Shown one piece after another: positions 6,675 to 9,108 of a stretch of DNA of 9,108 bases. How positions within the stretch are numbered: the first letter of the stretch is position 1; the number at the start of each line of letters is the position of its first letter. The notes below the pieces were generated by a model, which saw only the letters and a program-made list of their open reading frames with translations, had not been told where the DNA came from and made no database searches. The stretch comes from a virus (Duplodnaviria; Heunggongvirae; Uroviricota; Caudoviricetes): IMG/VR virus record IMGVR_UViG_2667527657_000003, one strand, 5' to 3'. A program made the position numbers and the translations under genes.

Positions 6675-8585
6675 TCACTCCTCCGGACAGCTTCGCTGCC
6701 AGTTCTTCAAGGGTCGGTTGTGCAGTTGCATCCTTGCGGGATGCAACTGCACAGCCAGATCAAGTTGCCAGCGTTGCACGGACACACGTAATGCCGCATA
6801 GGCATACACCAGGCAGTCCAGCGCTTCGTTACGCCGCTTTTTGTTATCCCACAACAGACGCATCTTTCCTTTTTCCCACTTTTCCACCAGTTCCTCCGCC
6901 ACCAGTTGTTGTGCCTCTGTCTGCGAAAAAATCTCCGGATTATCAGGAAAGCGGATGGCATACGATGTGGCCTCATTCACAGGGGTGGGATCGGCCTTCA
7001 TTCGGGCATAGAGAATTTCTTTTGCGGTATCCGTCCCCACCTCACACAGATACACACCCCGCTGATTGCGGGTTTTCGGCATGGTGATCACCGGCTTGCC
7101 ATAGACAGAGGCACCTTTTACCGGCAGTACCCGGAAAATACCGTGTTTTTTTGACCTCTGATACACGATTTCGCCATCGATCCCCCCGATATCCCAGCAG
7201 ACACGGGAAATGGTCATTTCGGTACCGTCTGCATGGCGGTATTTTTTATTGATCGCCGCATCCACACGTAACAGCGTCTCTTCCTCATCAGGACGTCCCA
7301 TGATGATGATTTTATCCACCAGAAAGGCTTCCTCTCCCGGAGCCCACCCCCAGACATACATCTCAAAACGGTTTCGCTGCGAGTCAATGCCCGCCGTCAG
7401 ATAAACCACCCGGACAGGCACCGTTGCCGTGTAAGGCACAACCTTATCCATCAGTACCTGGTGATCGAGTTTTTCGCCCACGGCCTCTTCCCAGGTCTCG
7501 CCCAGCGTGGTGTTCACAAAAGTTTTCACGCCGTTGGGATCTTTCAGTGCATCCAGCCAGTCACAGACTATCTGTACCCTGGTGGTGAACGGACTGTACG
7601 CCGTCCATATATGGAAAGTGATGGAGCGCGGCGGCGGAATTTCATTACCCGAAGCACTGAAAAACGTCAGACCGTCACACGTCCACATCCCGGTATTGTC
7701 ACAAATCCAGCGCCCCCCGGTCTGATCAAGTTCAGACTGACGGATCACGCAGCCATTATGTTCACACAGGTAATACACCGTTTCCGGTTTACCCTTCTCC
7801 CATTTCAGGCCAAACGACGTCGCATCATCGCCAAACTTCAGATACTGCTCCTCCCCGCAATGAGGGCAAGGGACATAAAACCGCATGAAATGCGCAGATT
7901 CATTCGCAGCTTTTTCAATCTGACAGGAGCCTTTAATTTTTGGCGTTGAACCGCGTATGGATTTTGGCCATACCGAACCTTCAATACGTTTATCGCCAAG
8001 CAGTGTTGGCGAACCTTCTTTTTCCACATCCGGTTCAAACGAGGAGAGTTCGTCATAGCAGACCACATCGACAGATTTTTCACGGTAGTTTTTGGCAGCA
8101 GCACCACCCAAACACCAGAACCCCACACCAGAGGAAAAACGCTTCAGTGTGAGCGTATTATCCCGGTGTTTCCGGCCCAGCCAGGGAGAAAGTTTTTTCA
8201 GGCAAGGAACATCACGAATTGTTGCTTCCACGTGAGACTTCATAAAATCTTCAGCAGCTGAGTCCGTCGGCTGAAAAAGAAGAGTGTTGCGGGATTTGTG
8301 CTCAATAAAATACCCGATCACACCAAGCACCATTTTTGTATAACCAACACGGGCAGATTTAATCAGGTTAACTGTACGAATCTCGTCATTGCCCATGCAG
8401 TTCATGATGGCGACCTGAAACTGCAGCGTTTTCCATTCCCCCTCACCGTATGACGATTCTTTAGGCAGGTAATAATTTTGATCGGCCCATTCTACAGCCG
8501 TCACCGGCAATACCCTGACCAGTGGCTGCAGTGCGATAGTGACTGCCACCATCATATTACTCAGTTGTTGTTCTGATATATTCAT
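6675..8585 (-). CDS. A: Terminase large subunit (lambda gpA homolog)
   Basis: Collinear with lambda gpA from MNISEQQ (ATG at 8583-8585) through the C-terminus: TAVEWAD.NYYLPKES, KSARVGY, FWCLGG.AAKNYREKSVDV, GDKRIEGSVWPKSIRGSTPK, CPHCGEEQYLKFGD, FHIWTAYSPFTT, FVNTTLGETWE, YLTAGIDSQ, WDNKKRRNEALDC. The 19 codons upstream in the ORF track overlap the end of Nu1 and are not the native start. Confidence 0.95.
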   Translation of the reverse strand: MNISEQQLSNMMVAVTIALQPLVRVLPVTAVEWADQNYYLPKESSYGEGEWKTLQFQVAIMNCMGNDEIRTVNLIKSARVGYTKMVLGVIGYFIEHKSRNTLLFQPTDSAAEDFMKSHVEATIRDVPCLKKLSPWLGRKHRDNTLTLKRFSSGVGFWCLGGAAAKNYREKSVDVVCYDELSSFEPDVEKEGSPTLLGDKRIEGSVWPKSIRGSTPKIKGSCQIEKAANESAHFMRFYVPCPHCGEEQYLKFGDDATSFGLKWEKGKPETVYYLCEHNGCVIRQSELDQTGGRWICDNTGMWTCDGLTFFSASGNEIPPPRSITFHIWTAYSPFTTRVQIVCDWLDALKDPNGVKTFVNTTLGETWEEAVGEKLDHQVLMDKVVPYTATVPVRVVYLTAGIDSQRNRFEMYVWGWAPGEEAFLVDKIIIMGRPDEEETLLRVDAAINKKYRHADGTEMTISRVCWDIGGIDGEIVYQRSKKHGIFRVLPVKGASVYGKPVITMPKTRNQRGVYLCEVGTDTAKEILYARMKADPTPVNEATSYAIRFPDNPEIFSQTEAQQLVAEELVEKWEKGKMRLLWDNKKRRNEALDCLVYAYAALRVSVQRWQLDLAVQLHPARMQLHNRPLKNWQRSCPEE

Positions 8586-8869
8586 CGAGTAAATCCGGTA
8601 ATTTATCCCCCGCACGCGCGCACTGATTCGCTCCCTTAGCAATAAGGATTTTCAGATGATCAATATGACGCGGCGTTAAATCCGGGAACTGTCGTTGCAT
8701 GGACAAAGGAATGGAGTCAAGCGTACTGGATAAAGCCATCGCCAGCTTACTAAGGGCAAAAATACAAAATCCGGTATCGATAAGATTTCCTTTTGACACC
8801 TGATTTTTTAACTGCTGTGCGACAGCCTGTTCTGCGGTCAGTTCCCATCTGGCAATGAGTAGTTTGAGG
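8557..8869 (-). pseudogene. Nu1: Terminase small subunit (lambda Nu1 homolog), 5'-truncated by the IS insertion
   Basis: The 107-aa ORF aligns only with the C-terminal ~100 residues of lambda Nu1 (ELTAEQAVAQQLKN, FCIFALSKLA, LDSIPLSMQRQFPDL, RHIDHLK, LLDEYI). The N-terminal ~75 residues are absent. The ORF's first few codons, including the ATG at 8878-8880, fall inside the IS terminal sequence. The Nu1 stop overlaps the A start by about 29 nt, as in lambda. Confidence 0.75.
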
Positions 8870-9108
8870 TGTACTGGCAATAGCGGACACTACCATTTGT
8901 TCTTTTTTTAAGCAGCCATCTGATGATATTTTTCCCTGAAGGCTGCAGGGGAGATATTCCCCAGACGAGAGTGACGACGCTGACGATTGTAGAAAATCTC
9001 AATGTATTCCCGTATTACTGAGATGGCTTCATCCCGGTTATTAAAACGATAGTGGCTCAGGCTCTCATTTTTCAGCGTTCCCCAGAAGCTTTCCATCGGA
9101 GCATTGTC
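8870..9108 (-). mobile_element. End of an IS3-family insertion sequence (continues past the right edge of the window)
   Basis: Contains the transposase C-terminus (see 8908..9108). Phage homology stops at about 8869. The + strand tgtactggcaatagcggacac starting at 8870 has the 5'-TG..CA-3' terminus expected of IS3-family ends. Boundary uncertain by a few bp. Confidence 0.65.
8908..9108 (-). CDS. IS3-family transposase (OrfB, DDE integrase domain), C-terminal 66 codons only
   Basis: Translation DNAPMESFWGTLKNE...YIEIFYNRQRRHS..G.ISPAAFRE carries the IS3-family C-terminal signature (DNA.ES.F..LK.E ... YN..R.HS.L ... SP..F). The reading frame is open to the window edge. Confidence 0.8.
   Translation of the reverse strand, partial: DNAPMESFWGTLKNESLSHYRFNNRDEAISVIREYIEIFYNRQRRHSRLGNISPAAFREKYHQMAA

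What the first reader, a model, noticed from the sequence alone, without database searches (positions are those of the whole stretch)
8557..9108. IS3-family insertion decapitates the terminase small subunit and removes the cos-proximal region
The Nu1 homolog retains only its C-terminal, terminase-A-interacting portion. The N-terminal ~75 residues, which in lambda Nu1 form the DNA-binding domain that recognises cosB, are replaced by the end of an IS3-family element whose transposase C-terminus runs off the window. In lambda, cos lies immediately upstream of Nu1, so this insertion (or an IS-mediated deletion) has probably removed the packaging site together with the Nu1 DNA-binding domain. The large terminase subunit gene directly downstream is intact.
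Basis: partly seen in the sequence, partly recalled or inferred. Interest (0 to 1): 0.5.

Follow-up and report, generated by a model that had tools for sequence, protein, structure and literature searches.

The report
IS600 truncates a prophage terminase gene
A common Shigella jumping gene (IS600) has cut off the front of the small terminase gene in a decaying lambda-like prophage of Shigella flexneri, and in this lineage the DNA-packaging site was deleted as well; this is ordinary, well-known genome decay.

Summary
Window 8865-9108 is the last 244 bp of IS600, an IS3-family element (99.2% identical to annotated copies). It abuts codon 68/69 of a 169-codon lambda Nu1-type small terminase gene, whose remnant lies at 8864-8557 on the minus strand.

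The window is a complete 9,108-bp draft contig of a Shigella flexneri-type genome and ends inside the repeat, so it cannot be extended in its own assembly. Finished S. flexneri chromosomes carry the identical junction, and two of them match window 169-9108 with no differences.
- **Simple insertion:** five genomes keep an insertion with a 3-bp AAC duplication. The Nu1 5' end and a lambda-like cos site sit on the other side of the IS.
- **Deletion:** nine genomes have one intact IS600 between a truncated Rz lysis gene and the Nu1 remnant, with no duplication. This is a deletion of about 3.2 kb that removed cos. The window shares all eight diagnostic alleles with this group.
- **Other deletions:** two further genomes lost cos by different IS600-bounded deletions.

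The large terminase is not intact: a 1-nt deletion replaces its last 30 residues. The portal gene is also frameshifted. This is known Shigella IS-driven prophage decay, of low interest.

The parts
8865..9108 (-). The last 244 bp of insertion sequence IS600 (element positions 1021-1264). The element is transcribed in the same direction as the phage late genes. The rest of it lies beyond the end of the contig.
   Evidence: It is 99.2% identical to annotated IS600 copies. It is 100% identical to the full 1,264-bp IS600 at L002 6347-7610.
8865..8893 (-). The right terminal inverted repeat (IRR) of IS600. The + strand reads TGAGGTGTACTGGCAATAGCGGACACTAC.
   Evidence: The same terminus is shared by independent IS600 copies with different flanks (L010 both copies, L003 second copy). 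It is an imperfect inverted match to IRL, TGAGGTAGCCTGAGTTTAACGGACACTCC.
8908..9108 (-). The C-terminal 66 codons plus stop codon of the IS600 transposase (the OrfB part of OrfAB).
   Evidence: Pfam rve_2 E = 5.7e-15 and rve_3 E = 6.3e-12. NCBIfam transpos_IS3 positions 313-369 of 369, E = 3e-20.
8862..8864 (-). AAC (minus strand), the right-hand copy of the 3-bp target-site duplication made by the original insertion.
   Evidence: In L003, L008, L021, L022 and L025 the left junction reads ...GAAGAGAAAC|TGAGGTAGCC and the right junction reads ...CACCTCA|AACTACTC. The uninterrupted target is GAAGAGAAACTACTC.
8557..8864 (-). Remnant of the lambda Nu1-type small terminase gene: codons 68/69-169 plus the stop codon. 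The N-terminal 67 codons are missing.
   Evidence: It is 99.8% identical in DNA to the 3' part of an intact 169-codon gene in E. coli FDAARGOS_943. Pfam Phage_Nu1 profile positions 85-163. It matches phrog_1790 and phrog_57 'terminase small subunit'.
6675..8585 (-). Large terminase gene (gpA type). It overlaps the Nu1 remnant by 29 nt. A 1-nt deletion at window 6748 makes the last 30 residues out of frame.
   Evidence: Pfam GpA_ATPase and GpA_nuclease. It is 607/612 identical to the intact 642-aa homologue and then diverges.

Best explanation
The window is one whole draft contig that carries the head-gene block of a defective lambda-like prophage fixed in Shigella flexneri.

**Step 1, insertion.** In an ancestor of S. 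flexneri, IS600 inserted into codon 68/69 of the prophage's Nu1-type small terminase gene and duplicated the target AAC. IS600 is a 1,264-bp IS3-family element whose transposase is made by programmed frameshifting. The insertion separated the N-terminal helix-turn-helix (cos-binding) part of the protein from the C-terminal part, which in lambda self-associates and binds gpA.

**Step 2, deletion.** In the sub-lineage to which this contig belongs, a second event removed about 3.2 kb: everything from codon 133/134 of the Rz lysis gene up to the left end of that IS600. The lost DNA includes the cos-like packaging site and the first 67 Nu1 codons. What remains is a single intact IS600 with non-matching flanks. 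I think the most likely route is a further IS600 insertion in Rz in the same orientation, followed by homologous recombination between the two copies. A one-step transposase-mediated adjacent deletion gives the same product and is not excluded.

**Consequence.** The prophage has no packaging site and no cos-recognising terminase subunit. Together with frameshifts in the large terminase and portal genes, this means it cannot package its DNA. The remnant ORF is a pseudogene.

**Shown versus inferred.**
- Shown: both junctions, the target duplication, the deletion, and the extra lesions.
- Inferred: that this strain has the deletion configuration, the recombination route, and the functional consequences.
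For: **Identity of the parts.** Searches identify IS600 and its transposase. Searches identify the Nu1 C-terminal half.

**Intact comparator.** E. coli FDAARGOS_943 carries an uninterrupted 169-aa gene that is 99.8% identical in DNA up to window 8865.

**Source of the window.** It is contig LAHV01000040.1 in full. Positions 169-9108 have no differences from the S. flexneri-type assemblies WACK01000005.1 and CP012735.1. They differ at 20-38 positions from AE014073 (strain 2457T) and the other chromosomes compared.

**The founding insertion.** A simple insertion with an AAC duplication is seen in CP026765, CP026792, CP000266 (strain Sf8401), UGYS01 and UGYU01. In these genomes the Nu1 5' end and a 45-nt cos-like sequence lie next to the left IS600 end. 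The cos-like sequence is 35/45 identical to lambda positions 1-45.

**The deletion.** Nine genomes have a full 1,264-bp IS600 between Rz' (134 aa instead of 155) and Nu1', with flanks GGG and AAC. All share the same left junction and none has cos within 21 kb.

**Placing the window in the deletion lineage.**
- It carries 8 of 8 alleles that separate deletion-type genomes from the others.
- One of these is the large-terminase frameshift. It co-occurs with the Rz'|IS600 junction in every genome where both can be read.

**The lost part is the DNA-binding region.** The N-terminal 68 residues of the intact homologue match phrog_57 positions 12-87 (E = 2e-11). Lambda Nu1 residues 1-85 match positions 11-91 of the same profile.

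**Background.** IS600 is one of five insertion sequences expanded in all Shigella species. Deletions between homologous IS copies are a recognised route of gene loss there (PMC7373316).
Against: - The contig stops inside IS600, so the left side of the element in this strain was never read. The deletion configuration is assigned by linkage, not observation.
- A single extra G lies between the Rz' flank and the IS600 left end (GGGACGG-G-TGAGG, while intact Rz reads GGGACGGAAT). Neither deletion route explains it without an added point change.
- IS600 SNP patterns are mosaic among copies, so they cannot separate recombination from one-step deletion.
- Pfam's Phage_Nu1 model and the PDB sequence search do not detect the N-terminal domain of this homologue. 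Its equivalence to lambda's winged-helix domain therefore rests on the PHROG profile and on position.
- The cos assignment rests on alignment to lambda only. The nick sites are untested.
Confidence: 0.88

Rival explanations
1. In this strain the IS600 is still a simple insertion. The Nu1 5' end and cos survive intact on the other side of the element, as in S. flexneri Sf8401. Only the gene is split and the packaging site is not lost.
For: The window ends inside IS600, so the far side is unread. Five finished genomes with the same right junction do have this arrangement.
Against: The window has no differences from two deletion-type genomes but 34-38 differences from the three simple-insertion or other-type genomes compared. 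It carries 8 of 8 deletion-lineage alleles. One of them is the large-terminase frameshift, which co-occurs with the Rz'|IS600 junction in every genome where both can be read and is absent from all genomes that retain cos.
Confidence: 0.07
2. The deletion was made in one step by IS600 transposase. The left end of the Nu1-resident IS600 attacked a target in Rz on the same molecule (an adjacent deletion). No second IS600 copy or homologous recombination was involved.
For: The product is one IS600, the right junction is unchanged, the left junction is new and there is no target duplication. That is exactly what an adjacent deletion leaves. Another strain, UAUS01, shows a deletion running precisely from one IS600 end to another, which suggests transposase-driven events at this locus.
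Against: Both routes leave the same product. From general knowledge, IS3-family elements move mainly through an excised circle (copy-out, paste-in), which does not normally give adjacent deletions. Recombination between IS copies is the route cited for Shigella (PMC7373316). IS600 SNPs are uninformative.
Confidence: 0.3
3. The junction is an assembly artefact: a short-read contig wrongly joined to a collapsed IS600 repeat.
For: The contig ends in repeats at both ends, IS600 and tRNA-Asp. Its left junction, tail gene U fused to aspV-downstream DNA, is unique to this contig.
Against: The identical 30-nt IS600|Nu1 junction is present in every one of the 17 independent finished or long assemblies examined.
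Confidence: 0.01

Closest known systems
IS600 (IS3 family, IS3 group) of Shigella and enteroinvasive E. coli
   Same: The 244 bp in the window are 99.2-100% identical to annotated IS600. The full copy in identical genomes is 1,264 bp with TG...CA ends and imperfect inverted repeats. It has orfA and orfB, with a programmed frameshift in the RefSeq annotation. It makes a 3-bp target duplication.
   Different: Nothing differs in the element itself. In the window's lineage the copy has lost its target duplication because of the flanking deletion.
Bacteriophage lambda Nu1 (small terminase) and the cos site
   Same: The gene sits just upstream of the gpA-type large terminase and overlaps it. The C-terminal 95 residues are 45% identical to lambda Nu1 residues 86-180. 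The intact relative has a cos-like sequence (35/45 identical to lambda positions 1-45) about 225 bp upstream of the gene, followed by three CCGGACAT boxes where lambda has its R sites.
   Different: The N-terminal domain of the intact homologue is too diverged for Pfam Phage_Nu1 and is recognised only by phrog_57. In the window both this domain and cos are absent.
IS-mediated pseudogenisation and deletion in Shigella genomes (Hawkey et al. 2020, PMC7373316; Nie et al. 2006, PMC1550401)
   Same: It shows the same element, the same organism and the same two processes: gene interruption, then deletion associated with IS copies. It also shows strain-to-strain variation in IS content at a single locus.
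   Different: The papers read here do not describe this particular locus. Its four configurations were worked out here.

Membership tests
IS3 family / IS600 | DDE (rve) transposase, with the C-terminal region matching the IS3-family model | tested here: met
   Pfam rve_2 and rve_3. NCBIfam transpos_IS3 positions 313-369 of 369 for the window fragment. The full OrfB of the identical element in L002 scores 336 bits against a cut-off of 160.
IS3 family / IS600 | Terminal inverted repeats ending 5'-TG...CA-3' | tested here: met
   The IRR, TGAGGTGTAC..., lies at window 8865. IRL, TGAGGTAGCC..., is seen in L002 and L003. The same termini occur in independent copies with different flanks.
IS3 family / IS600 | 3-bp target-site duplication | tested here: met
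   AAC flanks the Nu1 insertion in L003, L008, L021, L022 and L025. GTC flanks a second IS600 copy in L003. The duplication is absent in the window's lineage (GGG versus AAC), which is the signature of the secondary deletion.
IS3 family / IS600 | Two overlapping ORFs (orfA, orfB) fused by a programmed -1 frameshift; element length about 1.26 kb | tested here: met
   L002 has orfA of 100 aa and orfB of 272 aa within a 1,264-bp element. RefSeq annotates the same element with 'programmed frameshift'. Only the last 244 bp lie in the window itself.
IS3 family / IS600 | Near-identity in DNA to the named element | tested here: met
   99.2% over 248-249 nt to copies annotated as IS600.
Lambda Nu1-type small terminase (PF07471 / phrog_57) | C-terminal region (self-association and gpA-binding in lambda) | tested here: met
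   PF07471 profile positions 85-163, E = 5.6e-19. 45% identity to lambda Nu1 residues 86-180.
Lambda Nu1-type small terminase (PF07471 / phrog_57) | N-terminal helix-turn-helix DNA-binding domain | tested here: not met
   It is absent from the window, where the ORF starts inside the IS600 IRR. It is present in the intact homologue, whose residues 1-68 match phrog_57 positions 12-87. The window therefore holds a gene remnant and not a functional family member.
Lambda Nu1-type small terminase (PF07471 / phrog_57) | Position immediately upstream of, and overlapping, a gpA-type large terminase gene | tested here: met
   The remnant's stop codon is at 8557 and the large-terminase start is at 8585, a 29-nt overlap as in the intact relative.
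Lambda-type cos site | cosN/cosB-like sequence upstream of the small terminase gene | tested here: not met
   The cos-like 45-mer is absent from the window and from all deletion-type loci. It is present in the intact E. coli relative and in the five simple-insertion S. flexneri genomes. Cleavage at this site was not testable.

The most novel reading that the evidence does not exclude
The cos site and the small-terminase DNA-binding end were lost at least three separate times within S. flexneri, each time by a different IS600-bounded deletion. Meanwhile the 15-kb head and tail gene block stays more than 99.5% identical between strains. This pattern could reflect selection to immobilise the prophage while keeping part of it, for example its lysis or structural genes, and not neutral decay. 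The evidence here does not exclude this. The frameshifts in the portal and large terminase genes argue for plain decay.
Probability: 0.05. Interest if true: 0.3.

Novelty: already known. Interest (0 to 1): 0.08.

Why it matters
It matters little beyond annotation. The 107-aa ORF should be labelled as the 3' remnant of a small terminase pseudogene, and the prophage as defective: no cos, a truncated TerS, and frameshifted TerL and portal genes.

The locus is a clean worked example of how IS600 erodes a prophage in steps, first by insertion and then by flanking deletion. Its four configurations could serve as lineage markers within S. flexneri. It also shows that a contig ending in an IS cannot by itself tell an insertion from a deletion.

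Tried and rejected
- **tRNA scan.** ARAGORN found no tRNA in the window. The tRNA-Asp at the left edge lacks its first 5 nt because the contig starts there.
- **Expression signals.** The promoter and terminator scan of 8400-9108 found nothing, so there is no evidence that the remnant has its own promoter.
- **N-terminal domain by sequence.**
  - Pfam at E up to 10 gave only a non-significant Sigma70_r3 hint for the N-terminal 68 residues of the intact homologue.
  - NCBIfam gave no match for the intact homologue.
  - The PDB sequence search gave only chance hits and did not find the lambda Nu1 domain.
  - Equivalence therefore rests on PHROG profile positions.
- **Lambda cosN.** An exact search for GGGCGGCGACCT found nothing in any locus, because this phage group has a diverged cos. 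Alignment to lambda found the cos-like site instead.
- **IS600 SNPs.** I compared SNP patterns across copies to separate recombination from one-step deletion. The patterns are mosaic and uninformative.
- **Phage collection.** No deposited phage covers more than 46% of the cos-Nu1 region, so the prophage has no named close relative there.
- **Literature.** Searches for the assembly accession found nothing on that assembly. The combined search for S. flexneri, IS600, prophage and terminase returned one paper, which I did not open.
- **Not run.** I did not run structure prediction or the large protein-database searches. The full-length homologue is not encoded in the window, and the answer would not change the verdict.
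Full report
**What is in the window.** All long ORFs of the window lie on the minus strand and form the head and proximal tail block of a lambda-like phage. Reading from right to left they are:
- a Nu1 fragment
- the gpA-type large terminase
- W
- the portal gene, split into two ORFs
- an S49 protease/scaffold gene
- the decoration protein
- the major capsid protein
- FI, FII, Z and U

The finding concerns the right-hand 550 bases.

**Checking the observation.** ORF 8880..8557 (107 aa) matches Pfam Phage_Nu1 only over profile positions 85-163 of 164, E = 5.6e-19. 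It aligns to lambda Nu1 residues 86-180 at 45% identity (lambda sequence taken from J02459).

The frame entering the window at 9108 and stopping at 8908 matches rve_2 and rve_3. It also matches the C-terminal end of NCBIfam's IS3-family transposase model. The DNA from 8860 to 9108 is 99.2% identical to elements annotated as IS600 in about 3,000 E. coli genomes.

Comparison with independent IS600 copies and with an uninterrupted phage gene places the boundary exactly. IS600's right inverted repeat begins at 8865, and phage DNA begins at 8864. The first five codons of the 107-aa ORF, including its TTG start, come from the IS.

**The intact gene.** E. coli FDAARGOS_943 carries a prophage that is 99.7-99.8% identical to the window across the terminase region. 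Its small terminase gene is uninterrupted at 169 codons. The break in the window falls in codon 68/69, so 67 N-terminal residues are missing.

Pfam's Nu1 model does not recognise that N-terminal part, and a PDB sequence search does not either. However, it matches positions 12-87 of PHROG family 57 ('terminase small subunit') at E = 2e-11. Lambda Nu1 residues 1-85 match positions 11-91 of the same profile. From general knowledge, that region of lambda Nu1 is the winged helix-turn-helix domain that binds cosB. I therefore accept that the lost part is the equivalent DNA-binding region, on profile and positional evidence.

About 225 bp upstream of the intact gene lies a sequence that is 35/45 identical to lambda positions 1-45 (cosN and its right flank). 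It is followed by three CCGGACAT boxes, one of them inverted, where lambda has its R sites. I call this the cos-like site. Its cleavage is untested.

**Where the window comes from.** The chimeric U ORF at the left end is on record in a single contig: LAHV01000040.1 of GCA_001017345.1, 9,108 bp, which is the window itself. The contig ends in IS600 because short-read assemblies break at repeats.

The frameshifted portal product is on record in 2,587 collection blocks. The 107-aa Nu1 remnant is on record in 362 blocks. These look-ups, plus a scan of species-representative genomes, gave 17 independent long assemblies that all contain the same 30-nt IS600|Nu1 junction. They include:
- AE014073, used in the literature as the S. 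flexneri reference chromosome
- CP000266, S. flexneri 5b strain Sf8401

No complete E. coli genome in the collection carries the junction. Window 169-9108 has no differences from WACK01000005.1 and CP012735.1.

**What lies on the other side of the IS.** Four configurations exist.

| Type | Genomes | Arrangement | cos-like site |
|---|---|---|---|
| A | CP026765, CP026792, CP000266, UGYS01, UGYU01 | Simple insertion...GAAGAGAAAC\|IS600\|AACTACTC..., a 3-bp AAC duplication. The Nu1 5' end adjoins the left end. The IS600 is itself interrupted at position 181-184 by a 2.56-kb cluster of other IS (IS911 and others). Rz is intact, and a second, inverted IS600 with its own GTC duplication lies between Rz and cos. 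| Present |
| C | Nine genomes, including AE014073, CP012735, WACK01 and CP007037 | One uninterrupted 1,264-bp IS600 (CP178302 has a further IS nested in it). Rz, truncated from 155 to 134 residues, is on its left and the Nu1 remnant on its right. Flanks are GGG and AAC, so there is no duplication. | Absent within 21 kb |
| B | LR213452 | A different IS600-bounded deletion | Absent |
| D | UAUS01 | A different IS600-bounded deletion | Absent |

All type C genomes share the same left junction, so the deletion was one event. Measured on a type A genome it removed 3,218 bp. Of these, 1,264 bp are the inverted IS600, if that copy was already present at the time.

**Which configuration the window has.** This can only be inferred. 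Eight alignment columns separate type C genomes from the rest, and the window has the type C allele at all eight. One of them is a 1-nt deletion in the large terminase gene. That deletion co-occurs with the Rz'|IS600 junction in every genome where both can be read, and it is absent from every genome that keeps cos. I put the probability that this strain is type C at about 0.9.

**Mechanism.** The following are shown:
- the IS600 insertion with its target duplication
- a later deletion that ends exactly at the IS600 left end

The route of the deletion is inferred. I favour a second IS600 insertion in Rz in the same orientation, followed by homologous recombination between the two copies. That is the route generally cited for Shigella (PMC7373316). 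A one-step transposase-mediated adjacent deletion gives the same product. IS600 SNP patterns are mosaic and do not discriminate. A stray G at the left junction is unexplained by either route.

IS600 is oriented with the late operon, so read-through from the late promoter could still reach the head genes. No promoter-like site was found in 8400-9108.

**Other lesions.** It is not.
- **Large terminase.** A 1-nt deletion at window 6748 (CTGGCGG becomes C-AGTTG) replaces the last 30 residues with 24 unrelated ones. From general knowledge, the C-terminal end of lambda gpA is the part that docks on the prohead portal.
- **Portal.** An extra T at 5486 splits the gene. This lesion is shared by all the S. 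flexneri genomes fetched in the first look-up.
- **Tail gene U.** In this contig only, U is fused at 168/169 to DNA from downstream of a tRNA-Asp gene.

The prophage is therefore defective several times over.

**Comparison with what is known, and novelty.** The element is IS600 by every defining feature that could be tested. The gene is a remnant of a lambda Nu1-type small terminase.

IS600 is one of five insertion sequences expanded in all Shigella species. IS interruption, and deletion between IS copies, are the recognised main routes of gene loss there (PMC7373316; PMC1550401). The locus has been present in published S. flexneri genome sequences for two decades.

The only additions made here are the step-by-step reconstruction and the observation that cos was lost at least three separate times by different IS600-bounded deletions. 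I rate the finding as already known and of low interest.

Noticed in passing
window 1-168 (junction at 168/169): The left end of the contig holds the last 72 nt of a tRNA-Asp gene (aspV-type, downstream of dnaQ in E. coli) plus 95 nt of its downstream DNA. This is fused to codon ~118 of tail gene U, with no IS and no microhomology. The resulting 168-aa chimeric ORF exists in no other contig of the collection, and all other S. flexneri genomes continue into the tail genes. It is either a strain-specific deletion or an assembly chimera.
   Followed up: partly
window 6745-6749 (large terminase gene, minus strand): A 1-nt deletion with adjacent substitutions shifts the frame of the last 30 codons of the large terminase. 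It is present only in the S. flexneri sub-lineage that also carries the Rz'|IS600 deletion.
   Followed up: yes
window 5486 (portal gene, minus strand): An extra T splits the portal gene into ORFs of 351 and 207 aa. The 351-aa product is on record in 2,587 collection blocks, so the lesion is old and widespread in S. flexneri.
   Followed up: yes
window 3806-3812 (S49 protease/scaffold gene): Relative to the E. coli relative there is a +1 and a -1 indel six bases apart. Together they leave the reading frame intact.
   Followed up: no
L005 (LR213452.1) 4161-6526 and L023 (UAUS01000007.1) 2440-2800: Two further S. flexneri genomes lost cos and the Nu1 5' end by different deletions. One removes two inverted 184-bp IS600 arms together with the DNA between them. 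The other runs precisely from the outer end of an inverted IS600 to the left end of the Nu1-resident IS600.
   Followed up: partly
L002 6346 (left junction of IS600 in deletion-type genomes): One extra G sits between the truncated Rz sequence and the IS600 left end (GGGACGG-G-TGAGG). Uninterrupted Rz reads GGGACGGAAT at this point. Neither deletion model explains it.
   Followed up: no
L003 3969-6525 and L007 5429-6717: The Nu1-resident IS600 is itself a target for other elements. A 2.56-kb cluster of IS911 and other IS is nested at IS600 position 181-184 in simple-insertion genomes. A different IS is nested at position 372-377 in CP178302.
   Followed up: partly
L027 / L007 (CP178302.1): A chromosome whose record title reads 'Escherichia coli strain ECMA0423' carries the S. 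flexneri-specific IS600|Nu1 junction and the deletion configuration.
   Followed up: no
L015 7731-8083 (E. coli FDAARGOS_943): The otherwise intact E. coli relative used as the reference has its own defects: a frameshifted head-tail joining gene next to an ISEc60 insertion, and a lysozyme gene with an internal stop. It is therefore probably also a defective prophage.
   Followed up: no
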